Shown here: piece after piece, positions 1 to 28,716 of the stretch
How positions within the stretch are numbered: the stretch's first letter is position 1
Layout: each line of letters opens with the position of its first letter
Assembly (NCBI GenBank): GCA_004431415.1
Contig: QPMI01000051.1
Location: 1-53,265 of the forward strand
Length of the DNA: 53,265 bases
Reading direction: 5' to 3'
DNA from: Cyanophora paradoxa CCMP329
Lineage: Eukaryota > Plantae > Glaucophyta
Position numbers and translations under genes: made by a program
The notes under the pieces: generated by a model
What the model saw: only the letters and a program-made list of their open reading frames with translations
Databases searched by the model: none
Told to the model about the DNA's origin: nothing

Positions 1-3000
1 AGAGAGCTTACTTCTCTCAATCTCAGCAGTTCTGAAACTGTAAACTTTGGCTCTCAGACCTACATACTCCAATATGCAGAACCTGGCATCTCATTTTTTA
101 TTTACCTGGGTCATTCTGGAATCACCTCAAGGTCTAATGCATAAGATATATTCTCTATCTTTTGGAATGGTCTTAGATTCAATATATAGACAGAAGGAGT
201 CAGTATCATGGAATAGTAACTTTGCTTTTGTCCATTGGGACCTTACAGTATCATAGAAGAACTGGTAATTATGCAGTTTGGCTGCATCCAAAACATAAGC
301 CCCAATTGCAACAGGCTTATCTAGTTTCACATGCTTTGTGTAAAACTCAAAGGCAACTGCTTTTTCGTTATGGGGCTTGTTGATTTCACCAATGGGGAAG
401 CTGCATATTTCATAAATAGTTCTCACTGTTGCAATCTTAACACAGATCTACCTCTGCAGATTCAATGCATTCCCATAGATTGAATTATTCATGAGCTTGT
501 AGAGAATCAGCCTCGAATTTATTCACTGCTTTCCTTCTCATCAGTATTCAGCTCAATATAGGGTTTCATTACAGGAGCCACAGTAAATGATAGGACCCTG
601 TGAACTTTTTTAATTTCACCCCTTTGTCCAACAGATATTAGGAGAGGCTCAGAAATCACATAGTTTGGTCACAGAACCAAAGGTTGCAGTTAGCTTTGGG
701 TTTTATCAAGCTCTTCTCCTGAAGATCTAATAGGCTTTTTGATATTGTGATAATTCTGCATATTCTACTATTTTCTTGTTAATAATTAGGGGGAAATCAC
801 TGTGGTCTAGATATAGCCTAATTGGGTAATCCAGATCAAACTTCCAGGAAACTGGATCTGTTATCTTGTGGGTTGAATTCGGTCTCCCATCTAAAATCAC
901 CAACTGGATTGGCTGACTCAAACAGTAGCCATACAAGTTGTTAGCATCAAAAGCATAATATGGGAGTTCTCACCATCAGCCTCAGCATACCTACAAGGCA
1001 TTGTTGCAAAGCCACCCCTGATTCCCCTCTCAACAAATTCGTATTGCTCTACATCACTTATAAGCTCTATTTTTGCCTTGGTGGTCCTAAGCATAGCATC
1101 CCAAGATAACCCAGGTGCAGATACATAATGAACTGGGTCAAGTCCATATACTGAGTGTGAAAGCCTTCTGAAGCTTGGAATTTGTTCATTAACTCATCTA
1201 CATCAGCAGCTCCAAATCCATGAAATTACTTGCATCAATGAACTTGTAAAGACCCATTGCAATGAAAGGTATTGATCAAAGTTTTTCGAAAGGATTTCGA
1301 TTCGCTTTTTATCACCCATGCCTGCTATTTTCTGAAAATGAATGTCCCACAGTCATCCATTTGGTCAACAACACTGCTACTTTGTTTGCTTTGAGATTCT
1401 CCTATGGAGATTGCAGTTTCTGCATGCAGGAGCAATATAATGACCTGTGTGGTGATCATGATCCCTGCATTTGAAGTTCTCTTGTGAACCTCTCACTGCA
1501 AAGGTAACAGTGTTTTAGTAGCCCTGTAAACAGCCTTTTGCTCATCTGTGAGTTCATTCATGGGAATATTGGTAAACAGGAAGTCAATTAGCTCTCTTGC
1601 TTTGGATTCCAAGCATTCAAACAGACCTCCCATTGGATCCTGACCCTCAAATCGAAAATCTTGAACATCTGCCCCAGTGACTATTCTAATGTTGACTGCT
1701 GAGACTTCCCTCTTGGATTTCGATGCATCTATGGGATGCTTCTATGTTCAATCTTGCAGTAAACAAACAGGAAGCCAACAGTTTTCCTGAGGTTTTTCAG
1801 TCCAAACTCTATGGTGGTCTCAGGTTTTGGTGTGATTCCCTTTGAGAGTCTCCAATCAATGCATCTGTTTGAGTCCACATGAGCAGTGAGTTTAGCCTCA
1901 GACCTGAATCGAGATAAGCATGTGTCACAGTAGTGTAACTTCTGATCATTGTATGTTTCATGGTTTACTTTCAATAGCCTTGAAAGGGACATGATTGTAA
2001 TATAGTGACCATTCCCTTCATCATCAAATATCAGCATGAGATTAACCTTATGCTTTCTGCCTGGGTTACTTGATTGATGCAGGGGATAAATAACCTCTCC
2101 ATCGATTCCAAATATATTAATGCTAATGCCTGCATTTTGAGCCTCGAATTTATCAATAATATCAGCATCACAGGCAACAGGGAATGGGATGTTATCGAAA
2201 TTGAGAGCCAGCGGATTATAAGCGATTGCTGAGTATTTCCATTTGCGATATTGTGAAAGCTCATTCCTCTTATGGAGTTTATCGCTTTTCTGTGAATATA
2301 TGCCAAAATTGCATTTTCGAAGCAGGAATCATCAATATTTCGAATATTTACTGTGGCTCTCTTCCTAGCAATCCACTCTGGGGTTTGTAGAAAGCATCCA
2401 CCAGTTGGAGCATAACTCATAATAGCCACTCTGAGTATTTCAATTCTTTCTAAGCGATAGCTATCAACCACATTCATCTGCTCCTGACACATTTGGGCTG
2501 CTTTATTCAGCTCAGTTCGAATATTTCTCGACCTGGTTAATACAAGTAATCACTGTAAATGTATTTCGATATCCAAACCTGTGGATTGCTCACTTTAACG
2601 AACTTGCAGATAAAAGACAAGCGAACCTTGATTGCCCTGAATTGATCTAAACCCTGCTTTAATCGATTTGGAAGGGATGTAGCAATTCTGTCCAGGAATT
2701 CAATCACATCTACAACAACTTCCCTTCTGGCTCTGTAAGTGAGCCAGCGATATAATTCATTCATGGCTGTTCCATCTTCTGCCTCTGGTTCTATTTGCCT
2801 AGCCTATCCAATTCATCCAAGGTTTCAATTTTATCATATAGGTTATTTGCTTTTCTGGTTAATCTGCTAAAGTGGGTCTGCCCTTTGCAATTAAATCTAT
2901 TTCCTCATATTCAGCCTCTGTAATTTCATGGCTGCATAAGTGTTCCCAGCAATCCCATGAGTTCCCATTTCTTTCCCTTATGAGTTTGTTGGTAATTCGG

Positions 3001-3156: not shown

Positions 3157-3414
3157 CTATCCAAGGTTCAAAGAGATACATGTAATATGCTTCTTGTTCA
3201 TTAGGTCTTCATGCCCACCCTTCTTACTTGAATACAGGACTGAGAACTTCACATCAGAAGCCTTGCATAGGTCTGCTGTAGATGGCATTTGACCTGATTT
3301 GTGTTGTCTCCATCTTTTTTGAAGTGGCTGTGAGGTTCTTCCTATGTAGACTTTGTTCATTTCCTGACTCTCAATCATATAGATCGATCCAGAATCATGA
3401 TCTGTTCCAGCCAT
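3157..3414 (-). CDS. GIY-YIG endonuclease (short; C-terminus probably frameshifted)
   Basis: GSIYMIES...KVYIGRTSQPLQKRWRQHKS is the canonical GIY..YIG..R..QH pattern. Confidence 0.85.
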   Translation of the reverse strand: MAGTDHDSGSIYMIESQEMNKVYIGRTSQPLQKRWRQHKSGQMPSTADLCKASDVKFSVLYSSKKGGHEDLMNKKHITCISLNLG

Positions 3415-3465
3415 TTCTTACTAGTTACATATAAATATATTTTTCTATCTCTTAAATCATTTTTT

Positions 3466-3660
3466 GGTTGACTTAGTGGGTGGAGTTGAGGCACTTTTTA
3501 TTTCTTTTTAGGGCAGAGTCCTCTTTTAGAATCTGTGAAAAAATGAGTCAACTCCCCCCACTTAGTCAACCTAATCGATAAATAAACCATAAATAAAAGA
3601 CTGTTTGGGTCTTTTATGATAAATTTGAGTCAACTGTGAGTCCACTTTTGAGTAAACCTA
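3466..3660. repeat. Inverted-repeat/iteron block A (candidate origin or recombination site)
   Basis: GGTTGACTTAGTGGGTGGAGTTGAG (3466-3490) is an imperfect inverted repeat of GTCAACTCCCCCCACTTAGTCAACC (3547-3571). Further GAGTC(A/C)AC units occur at ~3625-3650. Homologous to block B. Confidence 0.8.
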
Positions 3661-6237
3661 AACTTCAACATCAGAGTCATAATCTGATGCATCAGGATCA
3701 GCAGCAGGTAGTTCTTGTTTCATCCTTGGATTAGCTTCTTCCTCAATGGTCTCATCATCTACAAGCTTCATCTTTCTGAATTCCTCAAATACTTGTGGGA
3801 ACAAGAAATGATAGTATTGTTTGCCATTTGTAGTTTTCACTTGGATATATGTACACTTCGCATTTCTGTATAATATCTGCGACTATTATAATCGTTTTTA
3901 TATTTGTTGCTGGTAATAACTCCTGGAACCATTTCCAGGTTTCCACAAGGCTACCAGACTTGCATTTATTCTCGGAAATTAAGCCTCGATCCACAAGCCA
4001 CTTAGTGAACATAAGAATGATTGGGGCGCATACCTGCTGGGCTAAATAGTATTTATTTGTAAGGGGTCTATCAGCAATCCAGTTCACATCCTCACAGTCA
4101 ACTTTGGTTCTCAAATAGTGGGCAATGTTTCGAATATTGCAGTGATCATTTAGCCATTTTACAAGTGGAAGGAAGTATGACCTATCCTTTGCGAATTTCT
4201 TACTAACTTCAACAACCACAAATCGCCTATCTCCAGCTTCAATTTTTACTGGAATGTTGTTATTGCTGGTGAATATAATCCTGGCAAAGTTGCTTTTTGT
4301 GTATGAATCTATCCCTTTGTGTTCAATTACAATCTTATCAGAAGTTATGAGATCTTTGAGCATATCATTATTTTCGAATGTGTCCTTGCCTGAGGCTTCA
4401 TTGACAACAATCAAGATCTTATCCTCTCTATGGGCAAATCGACCAAACAGATCCTCTTTTGGCTTACCAGTTGCATAACTCAGGGCATCTCCAAGTATCT
4501 TCTTTTGGAAAGTATCAACCAACACATTCTTACCAGTTCCCTGTTCACCAATGAAGATTAAGGATACTCCATTGAGTTCCCCAGGCTTTGCAGCATGTGG
4601 GCAAACCATTTCAACAGATATTCATAGGTATTTGATCCTCACCAGACATTAAGAACAAGTGATCAAGGAACAGGCTTAATCATCTCAGCAGTTACATCCT
4701 CTGGAGCATTTTCGAATTGCTGATGGTCGACCTTCATTCCTGGATAGAGATTAAATACAGGACTTGCATTTTGCACTGAGAGTAGCAGGAGGTGGGAGGA
4801 AATCCATGTAAGTTGATCTTGTGGCTGTTGGATCCACAATCCATTTCCTAAATGATTGCTCCCATTTCTCTTTCTCATTATCTGTCCCCATTCACAATCA
4901 CCTTATGCATCAATGTGGGGAAATGCTTGTAGACAGTTTTCCAATGTCTTTGGGCATCCAGCAAAAGTAGTTGTTCATCCCAGAGCATCACACAACCAAC
5001 ATTTTCAACATGATGCATGCGAGCATTGAAATACCTCTAATGCACATTGTAATGTTCAGCCAAGGAGGGATACTTGCAGTCTTGTAATCGATTTCATCTG
5101 TGTCCTCTGGTAGGAATGCATACTTTTTGGGGAAGAGTTCCTTGAAAAGCTCATTGTTATCTTGCTCAACCAATAAACCAAGGATTTGAAGGTCAACACT
5201 TTGCCAGGCTCAGCCTTCTTCTTGCTTCTGCGAAGCTGTGTAAACTTCTCCTGGCATTCATCATAATCACTTGTCACTCTGTTCTGAGAATTGGTGGAAG
5301 AGTTCAGCTTGCATTTTAGGGGTAAATTTGTTGTCTTCCCCAACATTGATGATGACCAGTCCTACATCAATCAAGTTTTATACTCATTAGCTCTCTCACC
5401 ATTCAGACCATTATAACACTTTGTAGCAGTTCGAAAGTAACAGGATTTTCGGGTTCAGTGTCTTTTTCAGCTTCTACCTTCTCAGTCTTCACTTTATCAC
5501 TTTTTGGCTCCTTTTTAACTGGTTTTGGCTCAGGGCTATAATTTGCAATGCAGAAATATTTGATTCATCCACAAGTTTAGTAGTAGCTGAGAAGTAAGAT
5601 ACAAAGAAGTCCTCATTTCGCATTAACACTTTGTCACAGTCAACGAATTTCTTAAAGCAAACGTTTTTATCAACATCTTTTTTCGACTTATTTTGAGCAT
5701 CCAGAGTCTCACCTTTGCAGCAATTGAGGCAGATTAGGTTCTGTGTGGAGCTGTAAACTCCACTGTCATAATCCTCATTTTTCACCAATCCCATCGCTTT
5801 GAAAAGCTTGGGGATATCTTCATGTTTGCATGCAAGCGATTTAATAATAAAGTGGGCTGAATCTTGAACTTGGTGACATCCTCCTTAATCAAATAAACCC
5901 TTCTATGGCGAACTGCAACAGCAATATCGTTAATAGAAGTGGTACCAGATCGCTTCCATAGCTTATCTCTCATCTCTCTTACAACAGTTTCCGCCTCAGC
6001 ATAGTTATCAGCAATGTTCTCCTTCAAATCAGCGAATTTATCCAGGTCCAGGTAAACTCTGGTCACTTGCTCAGGTTGAATGCATTCAGCCCAGGTCTTA
6101 ACTTGCTATTATCAATGGCTTCAAGGGCATCTTCGGCAGAATCAAATACATGGGTGACCTTGTTGCGATCACCAATGAGAGTACTAAGGAATGTAGCATT
6201 TTTCAACAGGGGTGGCGAATTTCTCGATTTTGTTCAT
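3658..6237 (-). CDS. D5-like AEP primase - PriCT-2 - superfamily 3 helicase fusion (fragmented by frameshifts)
   Basis: RVYLDLD (AEP motif I) and DSGVYSSTQNL (AEP motif III); LTFKSLVYWVEQDN (PriCT-2-like); GEQGTGKN Walker A, ILIVVNEA Walker B, IIFTSNN motif C and DRRF in ORF 3785-4609. The start ATG at 6237 is inferred. Confidence 0.88.
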
Positions 6238-8271: not shown

Positions 8272-9015
8272 CTATGGACTTGGCTTTTCACTTCTTTGGG
8301 GCTTCCTCTTTCTCTGGTGGTTTCAGTTCATCTTCTTTCTTTTTGGCTTCCTGTGGAAGCGAGGAAATGGGAAATCTTTCACAAGCTCAGCTTTATCTAC
8401 ATAGTATTTAACTGAGTAGTTTGCAGAGGACCAAATGATATACTGATAGGAGTGAACATACTCTTCAAACATCTTGTAGAAATCCTCTTTATTTCGCATA
8501 TATTGTATTCTTCCTCTATGGCTTCCAGTTCTTTGCGATTTGCAGCACTTAGAAACATTGCATAATCCGAATTTACTCGAATAGTCGAAGAGACTTTTCT
8601 TAGCTTTTGTGTGATGCAGATAATGGATATTTTCGAATGGCGACCTCTGGAATACAGAGATCCGATTATTTATCCCTTGTGAGATCGACTATCTCATTAT
8701 CGATTAAATCATCTAAAACCAACACAATTGGTTAACAGGTTCACCTTTCTCTATTTTCTCTTGCCTCTCATCTAGCAATTTAGCAATGTAAGGGGCATCC
8801 CATTTTCCCAGTTGCAGTGTTGCCACTTTATCCCAGAAATGATTGAAGCTGGTTCCACTCACAACTAATACAACATCAATCTTTTTGGCATCATGTAATT
8901 GCTTTAACCAATACTTTACAGCTTCTGATTTACCAGTTGCTGATTTTCCTATTGCCAATACACGAAATGGTGGTTCTATCATTTCACCAGCCACAAATTC
9001 ATCCAAATCAGTCAT
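8272..9015 (-). CDS. A32/FtsK-HerA family genome-packaging ATPase (frameshifted)
   Basis: PFRVLAIGKSATGKS Walker A. After a shift near 8715 it reads ..DDLI (Walker B) and GSLYSRGRHSKISIICITQKLRKVSSTIRVNSDY (the A32 RGRH..Q..R.N signature). End is approximate. Confidence 0.92.
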
Positions 9016-9080
9016 TGTTGTATATCTTTCTTAATAAAGACATATAAAAATAATGCAGGGAGACTGAAAATCGTAACAAT

Positions 9081-10450
9081 CTATAAATTAATTCTGCGTA
9101 AACCATCTTTGTCGACAATAATAAAGCTATGCATGAGAGCGCGAACATTAACATCGATTACCTTATCTGAGGGCATGTAGAGGGTGAGGAAGGAAGAAGA
9201 GGAATTTGTTAAATCAACATAACCAGACTGGGCAATATTTCGAATTGCCTTTTCTCCATCAAGACAGAATGGGAGTCCTGAGAGGACATAGCGATCAGCA
9301 ACCTTATCCATGTTAGAGCATTTGAAGGCATCAGCAATTAGCTCAGCACCTTTGAGTAGGGAAATTGGCTCAGTGGCAAAAAGTCGCTGACCATTTATTT
9401 CAGTTGTAAATGTTATGTCTTTGGATTGGCATAGGTCTTAAGAACACTGTGGGAGCCATTGGATTTGTCAACAGTTTCATGATCACGAACTGAAACAAGC
9501 AGAGCATATACAAGACCTGAGATTTGAGAGAGGTTAATTCGATTGGGTTGGGCATTGCCCTTGGCAGGGAAAGCACTAGCATCTACAAATCCAATATCAA
9601 GGGAGGGAATAGCCATGCCAGTTGTCTTAACCTTTTCAATGACAGTAGCGAAAAGCTCATCAGAAACATTAATAGCATGCATGTAAAGGCGAGGAGAAGT
9701 AATAGAAATAACAGGAGTTGTTGCACCAAGACTGAAAGTTGTGATATTTTGACCAACATGGGCAAGTGTGGCATTAGCAGTATCACCAAGACCATCATCT
9801 TCTGTCTTATCAGCAACTGTCCCACCAACAACAGGGAGAGAGCGACCACCATAGGAAGTTTCAACATAACCCTTTCCAGCATCCTTAAACCAAACAGTAA
9901 CAACCATTTCACCAGATAAAGCACCAAGGGGAAGGTAGTGATTTAGCCAAGGCACAGGGATTTCAACAAAGAATGAGCCACCAAGGCGGTTGGTTCCATG
10001 AGCAGGGATGCCATGAACCATGCCCATTGATCGCTTCTTTTTAGCTAGTTGATCCTCCGAATAATAGACCAGGGGGAAATGAGCAAGGAAATCAGATGGA
10101 ATATGGTAGGTGTAAGATCCATAGGTAATTTCAAGTCGCTGAACTAAAGCACCAACTGGGCGAGTGTATCCATTGCGAACTAGGTCAGTATCACCAGCAA
10201 ACGTGATGGCTGGAAGGTCGAAAGCAAGTTCGAGTTTTCCACAGAAATTGTAGCGAGGTAGCTTGAAGGAAATGCGATTTCCAACATTATTCTCAAAAGT
10301 ATTGCTGGGATTCACAACAACTAGAACTGGCTTAGATTTGGATTCGAGACCAAGCATAAGGGAGTTATCCAGGAAAAAGGCTTTCGCCTCTTCTGGGGTT
10401 GTTAGGGCTTCTTTCAGCGAAAGTCTTTGAAGAGTGGAAGTGATATCCAT
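9081..10450 (-). CDS. Major capsid protein, double jelly-roll (ORFs 9413-10492 and 9081-9311 joined by one frameshift, ~455 aa)
   Basis: ISFKLPRYNFCGKLELAFDLP..ALVQRLEITYG..FFVEIPVPW..LPLGAL..SGYVDLTN fits the PLV/NCLDV MCP pattern. Size and position between ATPase and penton fit. Likely start is MDITS at 10450. Confidence 0.8.
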
Positions 10451-10503
10451 TATATTCTCTTTTATTATACTGCAACATAAAAAATCTACCAATGATCCTT
10501 AAT

Positions 10504-11512
10504 TTATGCGAAGTTTGTAATAACTGGATAGGAAGGGTGAAGCTGTGACATTCGCATCTTGAAGTATTCATAAACTGGGTCCCCAGCTGGCTCATCACCA
10601 TAGCGAATTTCAAAGGTAAGATGAACAGGTTGACCCTCAAAATCAATTGGTTCATTAATAGCATTTACAATATCAACCGAGAAAGTGGATAATCCAACCT
10701 TTTTATTATAGTATTTGTAAAGTGGGTGAGCTTCTGTTGAATTGTAAACAACATGCTCACCATAGTCTTTATCAGGGACCACTATTTTGTGAAAGTAACC
10801 AGTCAGAAGACCATCCCCACATTGCACCAGATCACCCAGCTCCTTTACTCTCACAAACAAAACACTGTCCCTGGTCTTCTCAGGCTCAAAAGAAGATATA
10901 ATGCCATTCACGCGACCACCAGTAAAGATTCCATCAGTGAGAGCATCATAGACCTGTGATTGGATTGGGGAGTTACCATATCTTCCAGGATCAAGACCCA
11001 GCAGTCTAGCTGAACTCAACAGCTTTTGGATTGTTTGTTGGCTTGGGTTCACAGCTACTGAGAAAGCCAAGTAAAATGGTACTGCTGAGTGGAATATAAT
11101 TCGTTTCAGTGATTCATCCCATTTGCAGCGAATGGATGGTTGGGGATTCTGCCTTCGAATTTAGAGTTAATTACATTCACCAGTTGCTGGTGGCTTTGGA
11201 TGGGGGTGTTTCGACTTATAATGAATTGTTTCCATTGTTCATAGTCAGCAGCTGGGCGAACTGTTGGAATTCCTGAGCTTCCAGCTCCAGGAGTTTGTTC
11301 AGAATAATAAATGCTAAATGCATTGTCAACTGTCACATCTCTGCTTTGGTTTCACCACTCACCATAGGGATACTGTTATAAAATTCGGCTGAGACCAGTC
11401 TCACAGCCCTCACATTCTCATAACTACTGGGGAGTCTAGCCACAAAGCTTGATGTGGGACCATCACCAGAGATTGTATTAAATGAGCTAACCTCGATGTA
11501 ATCCACAGGCAT
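10504..11512 (-). CDS. Minor capsid (penton) protein 1, single jelly-roll (frameshifted)
   Basis: N-terminus MPVDYIEVSS..FVARLPSSYENVRAVRLVSAEFYNS and C-terminus LFVRVKEL..LSTFSVDIVNAINEPIDFEGQPVHLTFEI match penton termini. Confidence 0.75.
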
Positions 11513-11541
11513 TCTTCTTTTATCTATATTTATATATTAAA

Positions 11542-12474
11542 ATGAACCGGCTCGTTAATATTGATAGCAGGGATAGAAGCCAAGGACAAAATGAAAACTC
11601 TTACAGGGTCACCCTCACAACTCCAGTAGAGAGACCAAGGGAATGCAGGGTTCTATATGCAGAGATTCCAAACAGCATCTATAACAGTGTGGGAACTGAT
11701 CATCTAACAGTTCAGTTTAATTACCAAGATGGTTCATATAACCAAGTGATCACACAACAAGTGTATCCCCTTCCCAGTGGCTACATCAATCAGGGTCATT
11801 TTGGGGTAACACACCCTTATAATTATGGGCTGAACTATTCAAGCTTCCAAACCATTGCAGGCAAAACAGTAGCTTTTGAGTTCAAGATATTCTATAACCC
11901 AACTACCTATAAAGTGGAGTTTTACAGCAACCATGAGTTTCGTTTTATTGCAAGCAACCAGAGAATAGGGAAGCTTTTGGGTGTGAGTTCTACTGAATAC
12001 ACCAATGGGTATTATAGCACTCCTCCTGTTGGTGGATCACCCTATCGACCTGAGAACCTGTTAAAGTATGATGGCAAACCTATTACACCTGATCACCCAG
12101 CATGGGGAACCACCTTTTCAGGACCCAGACTCTCCTCAAAGCCCTTGCAGTATTATTTCACCAGTAATAAGATGTCTGATATGAATGCTGAGCAGTATCT
12201 GTACATGCATATTAAAGAGCTTGCCCCTTTTGCCAGCAGACACAATATAATTCCGAAATCGCAACCACATAACCAGGGGGCAATCCTTAGATTGCAATTG
12301 AGTAAGGATATAGGTGGCTATGTTTACCATAGTGGTGAACATGCAGAATTCATTCAGATAAATGACAGAAACCTGGTGATAAGGGAACTCACTGTGGAGT
12401 TTAAAGATTACTTTGGTGAACTGATTGATATGAATGGAATCGATAATTCTTTTCAGTTGGAGTTTATCGAATAA
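11542..12474 (+). CDS. Minor capsid (penton) protein 2
   Basis: Intact 310 aa. VNIDSRDR..YRVTL..AEIPNSIYN..YLYMHIKEL..IRELTVEFKDYFGELIDMNGIDNSFQLEF is the typical PLV/NCLDV penton pattern. Confidence 0.82.
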   Translation: MNRLVNIDSRDRSQGQNENSYRVTLTTPVERPRECRVLYAEIPNSIYNSVGTDHLTVQFNYQDGSYNQVITQQVYPLPSGYINQGHFGVTHPYNYGLNYSSFQTIAGKTVAFEFKIFYNPTTYKVEFYSNHEFRFIASNQRIGKLLGVSSTEYTNGYYSTPPVGGSPYRPENLLKYDGKPITPDHPAWGTTFSGPRLSSKPLQYYFTSNKMSDMNAEQYLYMHIKELAPFASRHNIIPKSQPHNQGAILRLQLSKDIGGYVYHSGEHAEFIQINDRNLVIRELTVEFKDYFGELIDMNGIDNSFQLEFIE

Positions 12475-14020
12475 AGGCACCTGTAAAGTCAACTCTCATT
12501 GTGGGAGCATTCACATACACAAGGGGATAAATGCGAATATATTTAATTCTGAGAGAAAAACCTATGTAAAAAGCATCCTTGATGCTGAGAGGGAACCCAC
12601 TCAATAGAGCCACATCACCAGAGTTGTGAGCATTGTTAATGTTCTCACAGACATATATTTTGTTTTGCCCATCTGATCGAATAAAAGACCAGTTGATCCC
12701 ATCAGTGGATGTTGCCACATTGAAAGTCTTAATAAAAGCATTGGTGTCCCCTGAGCCATAGGCAATCACAGAGGAGAGTTCAAAAGTGTATGGGAAAGCA
12801 ACTTGAAGGTATTCAGTGGGGGTTTCCCATATCTGCTCAGGAGCATAGGCTCCAGCTTCCCAGCCAAATGCTGAAGGTCTAGCCATGAAAGGCTCTTTAC
12901 CTGTCACAGAGGATGAGGCAGTGAAGGCATCATCTGCAAGCTGATACCAATTAGCATCCAAAGGTGGTGATGTAGTGAGAGTGGATGAAATGTAAGCCTT
13001 TGAAGGGTTCTTTAGTTCATAGTTTGCTACTAGTAGGCTGCAAAGCTTATTGATCATATCATTGTTTGCTGCAATGTAGGTTTCTGTGAAAGAAAGCATA
13101 TCTGGGATTTTAGAAGTGTCATCAAGGGAGCTAACTATATGGTTTGGAAGAGGGACCGATAGCCTATAGTATCTACCATAATCTTGATCATAGTTGTAGG
13201 GTAACAACTCCTCCATCTTATCAAGGGCAGAAAGCTCACTTGCAGCCATGAGCATGTTAATCAATGGGCTTCCATCTGTTGAGGCAATCCATGAGAGAAT
13301 TCCCCAGCTGTTCACAGTCTCATAAGCATAACCCACATAATCAGACTCTAAATGTGGGTCCACCTCACCACAAGAGATACTTATTACTATTATATCATCA
13401 TCATCACTGTAAATCTTCTTTGCATGGCTGTAACCACACACACTGGGATTATTGTTTCCCGAAATGGCACCATCAATGAGACAGACAAATACTCCCCGAT
13501 TGAAATCAACAATGCTTACAGGAGAGAAATATGTAGGAGCAGCAGAAGTAGCCCTAGCAGCAATCTTACAAGGCATAAAGTTGTAGTTGTTGTCATTTGT
13601 GATAAATATTGGTTTCATATTCTGAGTATCAAAGGATGTAATCACAATGTCCTTTAGGGAATCCTGTATTAGTGATTCACCAGTAACTGAATTAATTGCA
13701 GTCTCCAAGGGTCCCACATCATATTTTGTATTAAAAAGGGCATTTTCGATGATATTTCGAGGATTTGCGAAAATCAAGGGCAGTTGAGTTAGGTAAATAT
13801 TGTGTAAATCGTTTGCTGTCAGTTTAGGTTCACCTGGTTTATCAGGATGCCTGATATTCAAACCTATTGCAATGATCCCACCAGTGGAAGTTCCACTTAC
13901 AAGATCCACAAGATCGATTACTCTTCTGCCAGTTCGATTTTCGATTTCTTTTAGCAGCCTGGTTATGATAATGCCCCTTGCACCCCCGCCAGAAAGACTT
14001 AAAACGACCTTGAGAGGCAT
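12464..14020 (-). CDS. Patatin-like phospholipase with C-terminal discoidin (F5/8 type C) domain
   Basis: SGGGARG oxyanion loop, GTSTG nucleophile, ATSAAPTYF and DGA catalytic Asp. C-terminal EYLQV..FIKTFNVATSTDGINW..KYIRIYP..MRVDFTG matches F5/8C. Confidence 0.92.
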   Translation of the reverse strand: MPLKVVLSLSGGGARGIIITRLLKEIENRTGRRVIDLVDLVSGTSTGGIIAIGLNIRHPDKPGEPKLTANDLHNIYLTQLPLIFANPRNIIENALFNTKYDVGPLETAINSVTGESLIQDSLKDIVITSFDTQNMKPIFITNDNNYNFMPCKIAARATSAAPTYFSPVSIVDFNRGVFVCLIDGAISGNNNPSVCGYSHAKKIYSDDDDIIVISISCGEVDPHLESDYVGYAYETVNSWGILSWIASTDGSPLINMLMAASELSALDKMEELLPYNYDQDYGRYYRLSVPLPNHIVSSLDDTSKIPDMLSFTETYIAANNDMINKLCSLLVANYELKNPSKAYISSTLTTSPPLDANWYQLADDAFTASSSVTGKEPFMARPSAFGWEAGAYAPEQIWETPTEYLQVAFPYTFELSSVIAYGSGDTNAFIKTFNVATSTDGINWSFIRSDGQNKIYVCENINNAHNSGDVALLSGFPLSIKDAFYIGFSLRIKYIRIYPLVYVNAPTMRVDFTGAFIR

Positions 14021-14063
14021 CTTTTACTTATCAAGAATTTTATAAATCCATATAGTAAAAGCC

Positions 14064-21410: not shown

Positions 21411-21459
21411 TAAATGCATATTTCGCATTATTTTTCTTTCCTTCTTAGTAAAAGAAGCA

Positions 21460-22314
21460 ATGGGTGAATACAATCGAGTTCAACTGCCCATTTATTCGCT
21501 TGGATCGCCAGCTATGCACTTTCGACAACATGAAGTTAATGATGAAGTCCGCGGTTTAGAATCCACAGAGAGACCCAATTCTAATGGTAACTCCTTTGAT
21601 AAAAACTCGATAATTCGTGTAAAAGAACTCCGAGCCGATAAGAATTCGGGTGTAGTTAAAACCACACGACTACTTGTAACAAATGCTAACTTCTTTCAAC
21701 CGACAAATGGAGGTCCTGATGCATACAGTGTAGATTTAAAAGCCCTCGATTTCGATAAGAATACTGCTGCTGTTACTGTGAGATCAGGAGGAGCATTTAT
21801 TGGTGGAGGTTGCAGAGTTTCAGGTCAGCTATCTTCATCTGTTTCCTACAATGATGTCCCAGATACTCTCGAACAAAATGTGGAGAACCCACAACGAATT
21901 CGTTTCTACACACCTGTTGCACAGCAACCTTTTTTGCATTTCTATGTTGCATCCTCTGTAACTCTTGAGAATTCGGAATTAGTTTCCATTACAGGAACTG
22001 ATCGAGTAAGAAGAAATATTCCTCTTCCCACTGCAATGCTTTCCATGTGTAGAGCCAATAATAATCAACCAGGTCACAACTACTTATTCTTTGTTCAAGC
22101 TTCGAACCATTTTGGCAGAGGATATTGTGTTTATAACAATTTGACATTTACCTATGATCTGTTTGTCACTGAGGTTGGAGTATACAATACTATGATTATG
22201 GGACTGAGAACAGATATAGCAGCTGTATCAGCACTTCGTGGGGTAAATGTTGCTGATATATTCACAACAGGATTTTACCAAGAATTAGATGTAATTGATG
22301 ACCCAACCCCATAA
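21460..22314 (+). CDS. Putative virion/fibre-associated protein, paralog 1
   Basis: Intact ORF; likely start MGEYN at 21460 after TAGTAAAAG. Shares ELR.DKN.G.VKTT.LLVTNANF and SGGA.IG.G.RV.G with the next gene. Confidence 0.65.
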   Translation: MGEYNRVQLPIYSLGSPAMHFRQHEVNDEVRGLESTERPNSNGNSFDKNSIIRVKELRADKNSGVVKTTRLLVTNANFFQPTNGGPDAYSVDLKALDFDKNTAAVTVRSGGAFIGGGCRVSGQLSSSVSYNDVPDTLEQNVENPQRIRFYTPVAQQPFLHFYVASSVTLENSELVSITGTDRVRRNIPLPTAMLSMCRANNNQPGHNYLFFVQASNHFGRGYCVYNNLTFTYDLFVTEVGVYNTMIMGLRTDIAAVSALRGVNVADIFTTGFYQELDVIDDPTP

Positions 22315-22337
22315 AAGATATATCCCTTTAATGTAAA

Positions 22338-23174
22338 ATGGCAGAGGCACCCACACCAATAGAGCGAATTATAACACCACAGCTATCATTAGCTGCCCCA
22401 GCAAACCATGTTTTACAGCATGCTACTTTTGATGATGTGGAAGGTCTCCAATCCACAGAGGTCCAACCTACAATGAACACCTTTGGTTCCACCCACAAAC
22501 TGAGATTGCAGGAACTCAGATGTGATAAAAATAATGGAATAGTTAAGACAACTAAGCTACTTGTTACCAATGCAAACTTTTCTGCTCATTATGGAGACCC
22601 AGATAGCTATGGAGATCCTCTTTCTACTTATTCTTTTGAATCTAGGTCGGGAGCTATTAACTGCAAATCGGGGGGAGCTTATATTGGTGATGGTCTTAGG
22701 GTTGGTGGGGCTGTTGGAGCGCCTTTATTTGTGAATGATCAACCCAATCCCATTGATCCCAATACAAGAATTCGAACCTATGTCCCCAGCATGAATGCCC
22801 CCTATATAATCAAAATATTCCCCATTGTAGTAAATGAACAGACAGCAGTAATAGATTCTCTTGTTGAGATTGGTGACCACTACAAGGTTGTTGTGGATAT
22901 TCCACCAGATGTATATGCTGTATGTCAAGTGGAGGGTGGAACTCCTAATTTTGCAGTTGTGATCACCCCATATGATAATTTTGGTATTGCTTATCATGGA
23001 GTCAATTTCGGTTTGGAAGACTATCAGTTTCTGGTGAGAGCCACCAAGTTTGGTATCTACAAGTGTGTGATGTTTGCAGAGAGAACAGATTTTATTGCAA
23101 AGCAGAATACCTATGCTGAATACTATGGCACAAATCGATATTTCCCCATTTTTGGGCAGGATACTGCTCCATAA
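22338..23174 (+). CDS. Putative virion/fibre-associated protein, paralog 2
   Basis: Intact 278 aa; clear paralog of the preceding ORF. Confidence 0.65.
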   Translation: MAEAPTPIERIITPQLSLAAPANHVLQHATFDDVEGLQSTEVQPTMNTFGSTHKLRLQELRCDKNNGIVKTTKLLVTNANFSAHYGDPDSYGDPLSTYSFESRSGAINCKSGGAYIGDGLRVGGAVGAPLFVNDQPNPIDPNTRIRTYVPSMNAPYIIKIFPIVVNEQTAVIDSLVEIGDHYKVVVDIPPDVYAVCQVEGGTPNFAVVITPYDNFGIAYHGVNFGLEDYQFLVRATKFGIYKCVMFAERTDFIAKQNTYAEYYGTNRYFPIFGQDTAP

Positions 23175-23196
23175 GAATATTGGTTATATATAGAGT

Positions 23197-23469
23197 ATGG
23201 ATAGTAAAACAAAAAAGTTTATTGATGCTGCTATGACAGTCCATGGTAAAGATAAATTCGATTACAGTGAGACACATTACATCAAAGCTCAAGAGAAAGT
23301 ATCTGTTAGATGTTTGCAGTGTAATAAGGTGATCCTTACCTATCCCTTTAATCATGTGAAGGGATCAGGGTGTAGGGAATGCAACAAAAAGCACTCTCAG
23401 GCTTATAGGAAAAGGGCTACTTCATCAATTAGAGTAGAGTATAGGGATATTTGCATTAGGTTCGATTAG
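23197..23469 (+). CDS. Zn-ribbon protein (DUF723-like, as found in homing-endonuclease-associated viral proteins)
   Basis: FIDAAMTVHGKDKFDYSETHY...VSVRCLQC...PFNHVKGSGCREC pattern. No nuclease domain is attached. Confidence 0.7.
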   Translation: MDSKTKKFIDAAMTVHGKDKFDYSETHYIKAQEKVSVRCLQCNKVILTYPFNHVKGSGCRECNKKHSQAYRKRATSSIRVEYRDICIRFD

Positions 23470-23498
23470 GTTTAATTAATTTTTCTAAGGTATTCTTA

Positions 23499-23897
23499 AT
23501 GGAGACTCAATACAGAGGCTTTCATGTTATGCTTGATTACAAAGCTAAATCAGCTATAGCAACAGGATATGAGCATGTGAGCTTTCTAGGGAATTGGATA
23601 ATGGGAACCCTTGAACAAGCAGTATTAAGACAAGGCATTAGGATTGTTCATAAACACTGTGAGATATTTGATGGCAAAGTATCACCTCCTGGTTTTGCAT
23701 TGGTTCTGCTATTAGATGAAAGCCACTGTACAGCTCATTGTTATTCCAATGAAGGCATGTTAGCAATTGATATATTCAGTTGTGGTAAAGAAGCTCAGCA
23801 TAAAACACAAGCAGTAGCAGATGAGATCGATAAAACAATGAATTTCCTCACATTTGAGAAGACTGAGAGACATAAACATGATAGATTTCCGTTTTGA
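23499..23897 (+). CDS. speD: S-adenosylmethionine decarboxylase proenzyme, small prokaryotic type (pyruvoyl-dependent)
   Basis: GFHVMLD..PPGFALVLLLDESHCTAHCYSNEGMLAIDIFSCG, with the ESH self-cleavage site and the D.F.CG motif. Confidence 0.9.
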   Translation: METQYRGFHVMLDYKAKSAIATGYEHVSFLGNWIMGTLEQAVLRQGIRIVHKHCEIFDGKVSPPGFALVLLLDESHCTAHCYSNEGMLAIDIFSCGKEAQHKTQAVADEIDKTMNFLTFEKTERHKHDRFPF

Positions 23898-24136
23898 TGA
23901 GTTTCTATAATGATGATCAGGGTGATTTACCTTTTTGATTACAATAGCTTTCTACAATAATTATTTTCCGGATTCCGGACATTTTTTACGATAGAATTCT
24001 ACTGTATGATGAAGCCAAAATATGAATGCACCCTACATTTAGCAATGTCAAATAATTAGAATAATGTTCGATTTCCTTACACTAAAACCTCAGCATCTCC
24101 CCTTGATTCCCCCTATTATATAATATTTATATTAAA

Positions 24137-24575
24137 GTGGACTCAAGGTTGACTCATATTAATCGTAAAAGTAGTAATAGTATATGGATTTTGTTACGAA
24201 TTCAATGCAAGGGTTGACTAAGTGGGTTGAGTTGACTCAAATTTCACAGGAAATATTTGGGACCAAAAGTTTTCTAAAAAGGATTTCAAAAAATGTGTCA
24301 ACTCCCCCCACTTAGTCAACCCTGACCATAAACAGTAAGGATTTGAGCTAACAAGTATCACAAAGTGAACATTTTGAGTCCACTTAGAAGATCCACTTTT
24401 GAAATCCAAGTTGATTTTGCTTGAAATTTCAAAGTTGATCTAAAAGTGAGTCCACCCTGATTGATTATGGTAACAAAGTTGACTAAGTTGACTAAGTTGA
24501 GTCATCTTAAGAAATTCAAAGAGACTAAGAGTTCAAAATGTTTATGAAAAGTGAGTCAACTTAGACCACTTATGA
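24137..24575. repeat. Inverted-repeat/iteron block B
   Basis: GGTTGACTAAGTGGGTTGAGTTGAC (24212-24236) is inverted relative to GTCAACTCCCCCCACTTAGTCAACC (24297-24321, identical to 3547-3571). Many GAGTC(A/C)AC and GTTGACT units surround it. Confidence 0.85.
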
Positions 24576-24619
24576 TAACAAAGTTAAATATTTATTTGAT
24601 TTAATCGGAAAAGAACATG

Positions 24620-24848
24620 ATTTAATCGAATTTATTGATATAATTCCGATTAGATTCATTTAGGATTCAATTAAGATCAATCGAAGTTATTGATATAATT
24701 CCGATTAACTACAATTAAGATACAATATCGATTAATCGAGTTTATCGATATAACATCGATTAAATTAATTGAAAATGCATTTACAAATATGAAAATTCAT
24801 GTGAAAATTCAAATAAATTAATCGATTTTATTGATATAACATCGAATC
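24620..24848. repeat. Subterminal ~30-bp AT-rich direct repeats (4 copies)
   Basis: AATCGA.TT(T)AT(T/C)GATATAA(TTC/CAT)CGA at ~24622, ~24678, ~24732 and ~24818. Confidence 0.85.
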
Positions 24849-24921
24849 ACACATATGAATATTCATATTTTAATCCTGAGGCGGAACGCCGAGGGATTAA
24901 AATATGAATATTCATATGTGT
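24849..24921. repeat. Perfect 28-bp inverted repeat/hairpin at the virus-host junction
   Basis: ACACATATGAATATTCATATTTTAATCC (24849-24876) is the exact reverse complement of 24894-24921. The spacer TGAGGCGGAACGCCGAG contains a GGCG-GAA-CGCC mini-stem. Confidence 0.97.
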
Positions 24922-24924
24922 ATT

Positions 24925-25437
24925 GTCCGCCTTGAGTTGTGTGTGGCGAGCACCGGCGCCAGTGCCGGTAAAAGTGTCAGCCTACTCGGCGTCGACACCT
25001 CTGGCGAATCGGCCTTCCTCTGCCCCTTGCAGCGCGACAATGAGGCCGAACCCAGTGCTGCAGCTGGATCCGGAACGCATACGACCAAGCAGCGGCTATT
25101 TGACCGCCTTCCCGACTGCACTTTCCGGGTAACAACAGGGTTCTTCTACACTGCGTCGGCGCTGGATTCGGCATTTGCGGCAGAGCAGGAGCTGGGCAGC
25201 GTTCTTCGAGAAGAAAACATTAGGTTGCGCGATCGTGAGTTACGCTACCTGCAAGCACTGCTCGAGGAGGCAGTGCAGCACGTGCTCGCCACCCCGCAGA
25301 AGCCATGCAGCAAATGTATCGAGAAGGCTCTCGATGCGGTGCTGGCTATGGATTTTACATACTTGGACCCCGGCTCAGCCGATATCGACGTCCAACCACA
25401 GCGCCTCATTCTCAAAAAGACACTGCCGCAAATTTAA
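24925..25437 (+). CDS. Probable 3' fragment of a host gene of unknown function abutting the insertion
   Basis: Open frame to TAA 25437 with helical protein-like sequence (ELGSVLREENIRLRDRELRYLQALLEEAV). The called start codon lies inside the viral hairpin. Possible intron at ~25129-25188. Confidence 0.4.
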   Translation, partial: VRLELCVASTGASAGKSVSLLGVDTSGESAFLCPLQRDNEAEPSAAAGSGTHTTKQRLFDRLPDCTFRVTTGFFYTASALDSAFAAEQELGSVLREENIRLRDRELRYLQALLEEAVQHVLATPQKPCSKCIEKALDAVLAMDFTYLDPGSADIDVQPQRLILKKTLPQI

Positions 25438-25440
25438 AGG

Positions 25441-28400
25441 TCAATGTGTTAAATGAAAACTCACGTAGTAGTTCATCCACTCGATGCGGCGAGAGAGGAA
25501 CCCGATTTCCTGATTGCAGAGCGCCACGAGACGGCCGGTGGTGCCAACAGCCTCTGCAGCACTGAGCACGGATGTAAGGGCATCCCGCGCCTTCAAAAGC
25601 CTCGGGTACGCCGCCTCCGGGTCCCACTTTCCGACTTGAGTCCCGCTCAGATTAGGTATGGTGATCTCCACAGCATGCCTCTCCCGCAGGGCGCGCGCGT
25701 ATGCCTCGCGAAGAGCCGCTTCGGTTCTTGCGATCGCTTGCTGCTGCTGCTGATGCAGCAGCTGCTGATACTCCGGGCGATGCTGCTGCTGCTGCTGCTG
25801 AGGCCCCGCATGCTGCGCATCGTCCTCCCGCATTCCCCCGACGGTCGTCCGCGGCGCCGGCAGCTGCAAGGCGCCGGCGCCCGAGGTGCCCGGGAACCCG
25901 CCGCGGCGGTCGCGGGCGCCGAGGGCGGCGATGGCCTCCAGCGCCGCGCGGCAGCGGCCGGCGCGCTCCGCGTCGAGCGGCGCGAGGGCCCCCGCGAGGG
26001 CCTCGAAGTCCTCCGCCAGGAGCGGGAGGCCGTGGACGAGGAGCGGGTCCGAGGAGGCGGCGGCGGCCTCCCGGAGCTGCGCTCGCTGGTACCGCTCCAG
26101 TGCCGCGGTCGCGATGGACTCCTCTTGGACGAGCTCTGGCAGCGACAGCGTCGCCTGCGCTGTGTTAGACTTTCGGCTTTGCAAGCTTAAGCTACGTAAA
26201 AAGAAGCAGTGCAAAACTCGACAGACCAGGGTTCGTATCCGATCCGCACGCTCCGCATCCAAATCTGAGATCAGGTTCTCCAAACTACAGCTAGGCAGAA
26301 ACCAGACCGTGAGGACGTTCCCCGGATGAGGCTTGTGCAATCTCGTTACTTGCGCAGCGCGTGCAGCTGCGAGGGCCGCTCGCGGTCTCCCCAGCTTCTC
26401 AAGCGCCGATGCCAGCAACTCGTAGCCCGACACGGCCCCCTCTTGCAGCTGCGCTTCTAGATCCGCCTTGCTGGACTCGCTGAGCGCCAGTGGCACGTGT
26501 TTGTAGCTTCGATCCCGCAGAAGAGTGTGGTGCCTTGCGCATCGCGTGCACAGCACTTCCGCTTCGGCGAAGAATTCAGAGAGGAACGTGTACTTGGCGC
26601 CGGCCAGCAACGCCCGCGCGATCTCCATGCGATAGTTGTGCTCGGCGATGGAGCCCTCCGGCGGCCCGTCCTGTGCCAGCAGCGCCTCCAGCTCGTCGGC
26701 CCGCTGCGTCCCGAGCGCCAGGAAGCCGCTCGCCAGCTCCTCGTCCACGGTCGTACAGTCCACCGCCGCCTTCTCGAGCCGCTCCCGCTCCGCCTTTAAC
26801 GCGCCGAGCGCAGCGTCGAACGAGGCGAATGCACTTTGCGGTGGCGGGTCCCACTCCCTTTCTGCAAGCAGCTTTGTCGTGCCCTGCGCAGGATTGCAGC
26901 AGTCAGAGATCCATGGACTAGAAAAGCTGCGGCCGCGGGTCGCGGCGCCTCGAGCTTGCGAGCGGGGACGGACCTGGCCGGAGCGGCCATGGCGAGGCAG
27001 GATCACGGCCCGCTTCTCGAGGTAGCGGGCGAGCTCGGCCGCCTTCGCCACCTCCGCCTCGTCCGCGCCCTTGACCTCGGAGGCCTCCCTCGCGGCGCAC
27101 AGAGCTTGCGGGTAGCGCTCCTGCAGAGAGAAGACGCTGCAGAGCTTGGCGAGTGCCTGCGCGATGCAGGAGTCAGCCCGATGAAGCTCAGCTGCAAGGG
27201 ACACATAAGTAGAACTGACGCACTGTGATAAGGAGGTCCGGAGAGTCGCCGAGTTTGGCATTGTTAACGGCTGAAGCGGTAAGGAACTCGGCTTGCTGCA
27301 ACGCGTCGGGGTCCTCCGAGTTCGCAGGGATCAAAATGTTGTACAGACGCAGCGCCATACTCGCGGACAGCATGAAAGCATCGCGTGCACTTTTGTGATC
27401 GCGGAGCCGCGCGTTCAGCTTGCCCAGATCTTCGTAGTCCTGCACGAGAATTGTGTATCCGTTCCTGAGCAGGAGGTCGACGTGTCGTGCGCTGCGGGAT
27501 GGTGCCAACGAGTCCTGCAAATGTGAGAGGCGGTCCATAAACTGCCTGCAAGCGTTGAGCATTCGATCCGGAATCGATGGGTCCCAATTTACGGGCTGAC
27601 TGGAGGCGCTGGCTTCTGACTGCGCGTGTCATCCAAGAGGTCAGAAATGAGTCGGAAAATTTACATAAGCACGGATCCCGAATACAGCAAAAAGCGTGCA
27701 AACCAGGTACTTGCGGCGAGACTCGTATCTCTTCATAATCGATCTCTCCAATCTTCGGTCTTTCTCCACCAGGCCCTCCTCGGTTTCTGCTTTCAGCGCC
27801 ATCCAAGTCCGAGCCACGGCGAGGGCTTCGCCCATGCGCTCGTCACCCGTTCCAGTTACAGCATCTCTCTTGGACGCAAGGTCGATTGACGCTGCGAGGA
27901 CCTTGTGTGCCTGTACACGTGCACGCGAATGAGTAAACCGAGTTGTATACGTATACGTAGTTATAGATCAACGTGGTCAAAGAGAAATGTATAGATCAAC
28001 GTGGTCAAAAAGAGATGTTCGAGGGCCTAGGCGCACGATTAGCAGCTGTTCATGCAGATTGGGTGCCGATTCATCGATATCGCCAGCAATCGTAAGGCTG
28101 CAGTTGCAATGCTCGATGGCTCGGCGAGAATAATCCTCAGCTTCTGTGTACTTCTTGACGTCGTAGAACTGAAGCGACGCTTGGACCGTGGCGGCTACGA
28201 CCGATTTGAGAGCGCAGCGTTTTAGTGTCGTGTCGACCTCGACCCTCGACCCTTCCACAAGGCGAATGAGCTCATCCGCCTTCGGGCCCGCGAGCGCGAC
28301 GCAGGCCGCCTCCAGCTCTGCAGGGGGCAGGCTCGAATGGGCTCCATGAAGCCGTTCGATTTCAGCCGAGAAGCTGATGACCGCTTCTTCGACTTGCGAC

Positions 28401-28500
28401 CACTTAGTCGAAGCGAGTCTTCTGTCTGAGGCCGGTGCGCGCGCATCGCGATCGCGATCGGCCCGTGCGCGTGCACGTGCTTTGTGGCCAACACTGCGAT
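25441..28500 (-). CDS. Multi-exon alpha-helical (TPR-like) protein of unknown function; may be a separate gene or the 3' part of the helicase gene
   Basis: Long Ala/Leu/Glu-rich helical ORFs 25441-27261, 27188-27562, 27641-27835 and 27977-28258 (YTEAEDYSRRAIEH, TPR-like); poly-Q tract near 25740-25800. Confidence 0.5.
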
Positions 28501-28716
28501 GCGAAGGTTAAGAATGTTTGCTTAATTGAGCAATCTAGACGTAAATAACGGGCACACAGATCAAGCTAACCTCTGGCTAGCATCGATATCAGTGGAGACG
28601 TCGACCCGGTTCGTTGAACCACTCGCGCTTGCAGCTTTGTCAGAGGGCGCCAGCGGCACTGCAATGTCAAACCTGCAAAACCATGAATGGCTTTGTATAA
28701 AGATGCCGCAGTATTT

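What the first reader, a model, noticed from the sequence alone, without database searches (positions are those of the whole stretch)
24849..24921. Perfect nested hairpin exactly at the virus-host junction
Seen: 28-bp perfect arms, each containing its own 16-bp palindrome ATATGAATATTCATAT, closed by a GC-rich cap (TGA/GAG internal loop, GGCG-GAA-CGCC). Host-like sequence starts right after. Known: canonical Polintons end in simple TIRs with ~6-bp target duplications made by a retroviral-type integrase, whereas hairpin or palindromic ends typify telomere-resolvase, tyrosine-recombinase and HUH systems. Inference: a non-canonical terminus or integration mechanism, e.g. an opened hairpin telomere or cruciform substrate.
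Basis: partly seen in the sequence, partly recalled or inferred. Interest (0 to 1): 0.8.

Follow-up and report, generated by a model that had tools for sequence, protein, structure and literature searches.

The report
Fixed-orientation hairpin end of algal provirus
A 73-base fold-back palindrome forms the exact end of a multicopy Polinton-like virus inserted in what is likely an algal genome; it nearly always points one way and the virus likely inserts by an ordinary integrase, so the hairpin likely caps the exposed single strand during viral DNA copying, a variant of palindromic ends recently reported in related viruses.

Summary
The hairpin is real: 28-bp perfect arms, a 16-bp palindrome in each arm and a 17-nt GC-rich tip. 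It ends a Polinton-like virus with a double-jelly-roll capsid, a protein-primed-type polymerase and a D5-like helicase. Short-read contigs tile it at about 70-125 times host depth in two runs, and the arm-to-host join recurs in 4 of 4 runs, so it is no fold-back chimera. Six or seven different host flanks leave at 24921 (+0-3). Two flanks, from different runs, pair as a 6-bp target duplication. At least about 92% of ends share one loop orientation, so there is no 50:50 flip/flop; one end may be inverted. No recombinase, HUH or telomere-resolvase gene was found, but the left end lies outside the window. Published glaucophyte elements carry rve integrase (85 of 156), never tyrosine recombinase. 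The unusual end is supported; unusual integration is not. Best reading: the fold-back of the 3' strand caps the end during replication and is restored without inversion, like Streptomyces end patching (inferred). A 2026 preprint reports terminal palindromes beside target duplications in Halocafeteria elements, and this scan found 75- and 95-nt hairpin ends on other DNA of this genome.

The parts
24849..24876 (.). Inner (left) 28-bp arm, containing the 16-bp palindrome at 24853-24868
24877..24893 (+). 17-nt tip. On the + strand, which ends in the element's 3' end, it folds as T.G, two tandem G.A mismatches, a 4-bp GC stem and a GAA triloop with a G:C closing pair
   Evidence: fold; sheared-pair reading from PMC3201870 (passages) and recall
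24894..24921 (.). Outer (right) 28-bp arm; element end at 24921 (GTGT-3', i.e. 5'-ACAC on the other strand)
   Evidence: (other copies' flanks diverge at 24921 +0-3)
24922..24927 (+). First six host bases; candidate target duplication of this copy, partner not seen
   Evidence: inference
24545..24848 (.). Subterminal AT-rich repeat array (a 22-nt word about four times, near-copies of the 16-mer, a degenerate palindrome at 24750-24831); likely the inner part of a terminal inverted repeat of about 350-380 bp
   Evidence: contig depth steps from about 1900 to about 4000 near 24575 in X1; inferred
24134..24560 (.). Iteron-like AGTCAAC block, an inverted relative of the block at 3466-3648
   Evidence: blastn E 1.5e-10; 7 copies of the word in 23900-24560
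3466..3648 (.). Iteron-like AGTCAAC block just downstream of the helicase gene; candidate internal origin
   Evidence: function inferred
1..2803 (-). Polinton-type family B DNA polymerase in at least 6 frame pieces, cut by the window start; matches reach up to about 2580, the start near 2800 is inferred
3160..3417 (-). GIY-YIG endonuclease
   Evidence: E 2.6e-9
3785..6150 (-). D5-like SF3 helicase (3785-4621 shown); the upstream frame pieces are a possible primase part, not confirmed
   Evidence: one search gave no named family for the upstream piece
8323..9030 (-). A32-like packaging ATPase, in frame pieces
   Evidence: PF04665, E 0.0017, below the curated cut-off; Walker A-like motif visible
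9081..10498 (-). Double-jelly-roll major capsid protein, in two frame pieces
   Evidence: 56% identical to P0001; the P0001 model matches the PBCV-1 capsid, Foldseek E about 2e-18
12464..14020 (-). Patatin-like lipase with an F5/8 C domain
23499..23897 (+). S-adenosylmethionine decarboxylase, last gene before the end region

Best explanation
The 73-mer is the outermost part of the end of a multicopy endogenous Polinton-like virus, and it likely works as a fold-back cap and landing site on the 3' single strand exposed during viral DNA replication, while the finished duplex end is likely inserted by an ordinary rve-type integrase that leaves a 6-bp duplication. Shown: exact hairpin, exact end, many copies, diverse flanks, one dominant loop orientation, one 6-bp flank pair, polymerase and helicase genes, and iteron-like blocks. 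Inferred: (1) replication, by strand displacement from the ends or from the internal helicase-linked block, leaves the strand ending at 24921 single-stranded; (2) it folds into the 28-bp stem with a G.A-rich tip; (3) the opposite 5' end is rebuilt by protein-primed synthesis starting at the ACAC repeat, as in Streptomyces end patching, so the loop is copied but never cut and transferred and keeps one orientation; (4) the integrase gene lies in the part of the element left of the window or is supplied in trans.
For: The orientation-diagnostic 31-mer (interior + arm + first loop base) has 1.00-1.08 (X4) and 0.92-0.98 (X1) of the depth of the central hairpin contigs; 50:50 flip/flop would give about 0.5. 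Loose ends: 9 rows (10 contigs) giving 6-7 distinct flanks with the window's own, all leaving at the arm end or up to 3 chance-matched bases beyond. One left-type flank (X1) ends in ATCATC and one right-type flank (X4) starts with ATCATC; chance is about 1e-4 for that pair and about 0.7% over 21 unselected pairs. No listed variant in 24815-24955, while 22000-24800 varies among copies. The strand with the 3' end folds slightly better (-30.6 against -29.5 kcal/mol) and alone carries the GAA triloop and tandem G.A. Streptomyces telomeres pair internal origins with 3' overhang hairpins closed by sheared G:A and terminal-protein patching (PMC4513846, passages). rve makes 6-bp duplications and tyrosine recombinases do not; glaucophyte elements: rve 85 of 156, YR 0 of 156, AdoMetDC 66, lipase 89 (PMC12220804, passages and Table S6). 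Protein-primed polymerases associate with DDE integrases (10.64898/2026.10.13.758929, passages).
Against: No integrase gene is in the window, and the other end was not seen. The 6-bp pair joins flanks from two different runs and is not physically linked. The expected partner of this copy's own flank was not among the 9 loose-end rows (the listing holds only part of the flanks). One flank present in both runs abuts the inner arm; it may be an inverted-loop end or a solo hairpin. The strand energy gap is only 1.1 kcal/mol. [quoted passage not shown] A terminal-protein domain was not shown (no usable hit). The Halocafeteria preprint links terminal palindromes mainly to elements with other replicases and offers accidental annealing as an alternative. 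All function is untested.
Confidence: 0.5

Rival explanations
1. Self-priming hairpin: the folded 3' end primes DNA synthesis directly, giving a hairpin-closed duplex that is reopened at the same bond (after 24921), possibly by the integrase itself, whose freed 3'-OH is joined to host DNA. Host repair then fills the 73-nt arm and the 6-nt gap.
For: The fold places the 3'-OH exactly at the stem base, next to single-stranded template. It predicts one fixed orientation and a 6-bp duplication, as seen. Hairpin priming is the model proposed for Halocafeteria elements.
Against: The element carries a Polinton-type polymerase of the protein-primed family and ends in a dinucleotide repeat (ACAC) of the kind used in sliding-back initiation (recalled). 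No nickase other than a GIY-YIG and an HNH-like piece was found. No closed form was observed; only contigs were available.
Confidence: 0.22
2. The hairpin is a frozen by-product of fold-back synthesis. Its function is as duplex DNA: an array of binding sites (the 16-mer) for integrase or replication proteins, kept identical by copy correction.
For: Near-copies of the 16-mer and a degenerate palindrome lie just upstream. The preprint names accidental annealing as an alternative. The strand energy asymmetry is small.
Against: The tip is a compact GC stem with G.A motifs on one strand inside a very AT-rich end. Earlier notes report hairpins of other length and letters, some with G.A tips on the 3' strand, in sister elements (not tested here).
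Confidence: 0.17
3. Parvovirus-type terminal resolution, or a cruciform or telomere substrate for a tyrosine recombinase, HUH protein or protelomerase, drives integration.
For: One possible inverted-loop junction in both runs. Earlier notes report tyrosine-recombinase elements elsewhere in this genome (untested) that might act in trans.
Against: At least about 92% single orientation, diverse flanks and a 6-bp pair. No such gene in six frames of 1-9100 and 23000-25000 or in the long ORFs between. YR in 0 of 156 glaucophyte elements. The element ends after the second arm, not at the palindrome centre.
Confidence: 0.09
4. Assembly artefact (fold-back chimera or mis-join).
For: The viral genes near the window start are full of frameshifts, so the assembly may be error-prone there. 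No raw reads were available.
Against: Short-read contigs reproduce the hairpin at depth of about 4000 or more in 2 of 2 runs, and the arm-host join in 4 of 4 runs.
Confidence: 0.02

Closest known systems
Palindrome-ended endogenous virophages (subtypes 1, 2, 5, 6) and PLV subtype 4 of Halocafeteria seosinensis (bioRxiv 10.64898/2026.07.28.741278; passages and section 7 read)
   Same: Palindrome at the extremity of the terminal repeat, next to a target duplication, in an integrated virophage or PLV; hairpin role in replication proposed.
   Different: There the palindromes (52 nt in subtype 5) go mainly with non-pPolB replicases. Here the element has a Polinton-type polymerase plus a D5-like helicase, and the hairpin has nested 16-mers and a G.A tip. 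Loop orientation across copies is not reported in the section read. Its supplements were closed.
Polintons/Mavericks and rve-encoding PLVs (PMC12220804; passages and Table S6)
   Same: Polinton-type polymerase, double-jelly-roll capsid, A32 ATPase, low GC against host, probable 6-bp duplication, lipase and AdoMetDC as in published glaucophyte elements.
   Different: The end is a 73-nt hairpin rather than a plain repeat. No maturation protease was found, and the integrase is not in the window. That paper's main text has no occurrence of 'hairpin' or 'palindrom'.
Streptomyces linear chromosome and plasmid telomeres, Tpg/Tap end patching (PMC4513846; passages)
   Same: Palindromic 3' ends with GNA loops closed by sheared G:A, internal replication origin, protein-primed completion of 5' ends (here inferred).
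   Different: No homology was tested or is claimed. Streptomyces has several short palindromes over about 300 nt and dedicated Tap/Tpg proteins. This is a working analogy only.
Parvovirus and AAV hairpin termini, poxvirus telomeres, protelomerase ends (recalled; two paper searches gave no usable source)
   Same: Terminal fold-back able to present a 3'-OH.
   Different: No HUH Rep or resolvase was found and there is no bulk flip/flop; the genome is integrated with diverse flanks. One end of minute virus of mice is recalled to keep a single orientation, so fixed orientation alone does not exclude nicking.

Membership tests
Polinton-like virus (Polisuviricotina) | Double-jelly-roll major capsid protein | tested here: met
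   The window ORF is 56% identical to P0001; the P0001 model (pLDDT 59) matches PBCV-1 Vp54, E about 2e-18, TM 0.55
Polinton-like virus (Polisuviricotina) | A32-like packaging ATPase | tested here: met
   PF04665 E 0.0017 on one frame piece, below the curated cut-off; Walker A-like motif in the next piece
Polinton-like virus (Polisuviricotina) | Terminal inverted repeats at both ends | tested here: inconclusive
   Left end is outside the window. Depth roughly doubles over the last 350 bp in X1, and left-type and right-type flanks pair once.
Polinton/Maverick sensu stricto | Protein-primed family B polymerase | tested here: met
   101 homologs, many with PF03175; colinear tblastn and profile matches over 1-2582 in frame pieces; terminal-protein domain not shown
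Polinton/Maverick sensu stricto | rve integrase | tested here: inconclusive
   No hit in the part held; the element runs off the window
Polinton/Maverick sensu stricto | 5-6 bp target-site duplication | tested here: inconclusive
   One 6-bp pair among 6-7 flanks, unlinked and from two runs
Polinton/Maverick sensu stricto | Adenain-like maturation protease | tested here: inconclusive
   No Pfam hit in the part held; 0 of 156 glaucophyte elements list one; left end missing
Parvovirus-type rolling-hairpin replicon | Flip and flop isomers in similar amounts | tested here: not met
   Diagnostic to central depth ratio 0.92-1.08; this tests integrated copies as seen in contigs
Parvovirus-type rolling-hairpin replicon | HUH Rep nickase | tested here: inconclusive
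   No hit in the part held; left end missing
Tyrosine-recombinase or protelomerase element | YR-family gene and no rve-type duplication | tested here: inconclusive
   No hit in the part held; one 6-bp pair argues against; left end missing
Protelomerase hairpin telomere | Replicon ends at the centre of a palindromic target | tested here: not met
   All flanks seen join at an outer arm end; the centre is a 17-nt non-palindromic tip. The defining feature is recalled.
Streptomyces-type end patching (works-like only) | 5' terminal protein and 3' overhang intermediate | not testable with these tools
   Needs free viral DNA

The most novel reading that the evidence does not exclude
These viruses have a telomere system not yet described for eukaryotic DNA viruses. 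The 3' strand folds into a G.A-stabilised hairpin that primes or caps replication. It is reopened at one fixed bond, perhaps by the retroviral-type integrase itself, and the freed 3'-OH is joined straight into host DNA. That would unite hairpin telomeres with 6-bp-duplication integration and explain the fixed orientation, with the rare inverted end as a by-product.
Probability: 0.2. Interest if true: 0.8.

Novelty: new variant of a known kind. Interest (0 to 1): 0.42.

Why it matters
How Polinton-like viruses replicate and finish their ends is largely unknown. An invariant 73-nt end in tens of copies, beside both a protein-primed-type polymerase and a helicase with iteron-like blocks, is a small defined substrate. 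It allows a test of protein priming against hairpin priming, and of whether the integrase acts on folded ends. It extends the palindromic ends reported in Halocafeteria to a polymerase-bearing element in a likely glaucophyte host and adds a fixed-orientation constraint. The general phenomenon is already in print, which caps the score.

Tried and rejected
No whole genome is held for this window, so other copies, the left end and the empty allele could not be read directly. Exact arm patterns: 0 matches in viral contigs and metagenome contigs. Related loci: none confirmed for the capsid, helicase or lipase, so no comparative hairpin alignment or covariation test was possible. Genome contigs (prokaryotes) was not scanned. 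Homolog search with the polymerase piece 1732-2328 found none. Rfam: 13 matches, all miRNA-precursor models far below their gathering scores, read as generic hairpin matches. Cloverleaf fold using the nested 16-mers: -14.0 against -30.6 kcal/mol, rejected as the ground state. Bacterial promoter and terminator scan: at chance level and not applicable. PDB sequence search with the capsid profile: 0 hits. ESM Atlas: unnamed clusters only for the putative primase piece, nothing for the polymerase N-terminus. P0003 among the capsid hits is a repeat protein and was dropped from alignment A2; P0006 (a short fragment) was also left out. Empty allele: the host contig runs unbroken from the arm in 4 of 4 runs with no branch listed, but contigs drop rare variants and the loose-end table was cut, so this shows nothing either way. 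Contig breaks at the arm edges were first read as flip/flop; they also follow from flanks that begin like the viral interior, so depth ratios were used instead. Earlier-finding look-ups by sequence, by nearby place and by words returned nothing. Literature: searches found one paper on terminal palindromes in these viruses; two searches found no usable parvovirus source; no paper was opened.

Full report
Observation. The 73-mer at 24849-24921 is as described: perfect 28-bp arms, each holding the 16-bp palindrome, around a 17-nt tip. Nothing else in the window exceeds 13-bp arms at loops up to 60 nt, chance expectation is about 1e-8, and the folding z-score is -13. GC rises from about 32-43% to 56-85%, with the best change-point at 24924.

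Context. Bases 1-24921 are a Polinton-like virus. A capsid ORF is 56% identical to P0001, whose model matches the PBCV-1 double-jelly-roll capsid. A Polinton-type polymerase lies in at least six frame pieces and runs off position 1. There are also a GIY-YIG nuclease, a D5-like helicase, an A32-like ATPase (weak hit), a patatin lipase and AdoMetDC. P0001 is labelled Cyanophora paradoxa by its source, so the host is likely that glaucophyte or a relative. The left end is not in the window and no genome is held. Pfam found no integrase, tyrosine recombinase, HUH or resolvase in 37 ORFs or in six frames of 1-9100 and 23000-25000; long ORFs fill nearly all of 9100-23200. Whether the frameshifts are decay or assembly error was not tested.

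Artefact test. Of 24 runs listed, 14 hold half or more of the words of 21500-28500; I laid 4 on 22000-29000 and 2 of these on 24815-24955. In 4 of 4, one contig starts at 24894 or 24895 and runs into host DNA without mismatch at depth 33-95. In X4 and X1, overlapping contigs tile the hairpin at depth about 4000-4900, which is 125 and 69 times the flank contig. Depth is not a copy number: GC bias or free viral DNA could inflate it. No variant letter or indel was listed in 24815-24955; three 58-60-nt contigs with one mismatch sit below single-copy depth. These are contigs, only 16 of 97 pieces were shown, and one run may be the window's source. A fold-back chimera is still very unlikely.

Other copies. 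One search lists 9 loose-end rows (10 contigs). With the window's own flank they give 6-7 distinct flanks, all leaving at the arm end or up to three chance-matched bases beyond. So the end is exact and the targets are diverse. A left-type flank in X1 ends ATCATC next to the arm, and a right-type flank in X4 begins ATCATC: a 6-bp duplication if they are the two ends of one copy. Chance is about 1e-4 for that pair and about 0.7% over 21 unselected pairs. The two are not physically linked, and the partner of this window's flank was not listed. rve integrases make 6-bp duplications and tyrosine recombinases do not (PMC12220804, passages). That paper's Table S6 gives rve in 85 and tyrosine recombinase in 0 of 156 glaucophyte elements, with lipase in 89 and AdoMetDC in 66 (columns counted by hand).

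Orientation. The 31-mer made of two interior bases, the inner arm and the first loop base exists only in the window's orientation, apart from rare coincidences. Its depth is 1.00-1.08 (X4) and 0.92-0.98 (X1) of the central hairpin contigs, against about 0.5 for equal flip/flop. One flank, the same in both runs, abuts the inner arm, and both runs break their contigs at 24849. That fits a single inverted-loop end or a solo hairpin, but it may be a tie between the two identical arms. It is unresolved.

Anatomy. On the strand that ends in the 3' end, the tip folds as T.G, two tandem G.A mismatches, four G-C pairs and a GAA loop; the other strand has pyrimidine mismatches and TTC. GNA loops are closed by sheared G:A and are very stable, but less so with the G:C closing pair found here (PMC3201870, passages). 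That tandem GA forms sheared pairs is recalled. The computed gap between strands is only 1.1 kcal/mol. Upstream lie near-copies of the 16-mer, a 22-nt repeat and a degenerate palindrome. A depth step near 24575 in X1 suggests a terminal repeat of about 350-380 bp. An AGTCAAC-rich block occurs both after the helicase gene and at 24134-24560.

Mechanism. Most likely (0.5), the hairpin caps the 3' strand while it is single-stranded, the 5' end is rebuilt by protein priming, and integration is ordinary. This resembles Streptomyces telomeres, which have internal origins, G:A-closed 3' hairpins and terminal-protein patching (PMC4513846, passages); it is an analogy, not homology. Second (0.22), the 3' end self-primes and the closed hairpin is reopened at the same bond, possibly by the integrase. 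Third (0.17), the hairpin is a frozen fold-back that acts as duplex binding sites. Parvovirus-type resolution or recombinase integration (0.09) and artefact (0.02) fit poorly.

Prior knowledge. A July 2026 preprint reports palindromes at the ends of terminal repeats beside target duplications in Halocafeteria virophages and one PLV subtype, and proposes hairpin priming (10.64898/2026.07.28.741278; passages and section 7; supplements closed). There they go mainly with non-pPolB replicases, unlike here. Searches found no other report for these viruses in the library. The Barth et al. preprint has no occurrence of 'hairpin' (passages). This scan noted 75- and 95-nt hairpin ends and helicase-linked repeat blocks on other pieces of this genome; those are unchecked notes. 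I had reached the fixed-orientation reading before opening them, but the G.A-on-the-3'-strand and origin-block ideas came from them and were then checked on this window.

Verdict. Real feature, new variant of a known kind, interest 0.42.

Noticed in passing
window 3466-3648 and 24134-24560: Two related, mutually inverted blocks rich in AGTCAAC, one right after the D5-like helicase gene and one near the end (blastn E 1.5e-10); candidate helicase-linked origins.
   Followed up: partly
window 24849 (loose end 'before 24849' in X4 and X1): One host flank abuts the inner arm in both runs; it may be a single inverted-loop end or a solo 73-bp MITE-like unit.
   Followed up: partly
window 24545-24848: A second repeat family (22-nt word about four times, near-copies of the arm 16-mer) and a degenerate 82-nt palindrome at 24750-24831, perhaps an older, decayed end hairpin.
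   Followed up: partly
window 1-9500: Polymerase, helicase, ATPase and capsid genes are in frame pieces, while genes from 10500 to 23900 are open; decay against assembly error near the window start was not tested.
   Followed up: no
window 14189-21410: Two long fibre-like ORFs with 36-bp (12-residue) tandem repeats and a shared 300-bp block at 90% identity; no Pfam hit.
   Followed up: no
window 23499-23897 and 12464-14020: Virus-borne S-adenosylmethionine decarboxylase and a patatin lipase fused to an F5/8 C domain; both gene types are common in published glaucophyte elements.
   Followed up: partly
window 23194-23469: Small ORF matching phage HNH-endonuclease-associated domains (E about 3e-9).
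   Followed up: no
window 30859-30916 and 37878-37935: 58-nt inverted repeat pair, 97% complementary, 6961 nt apart in host DNA; may bound a host DNA transposon.
   Followed up: no
window 28717-31636 and 42793-43674: Host-side genes: UvrD-like helicase pieces and a kinesin-associated protein; parts of 25500-29000 have paralogous copies in the runs.
   Followed up: no
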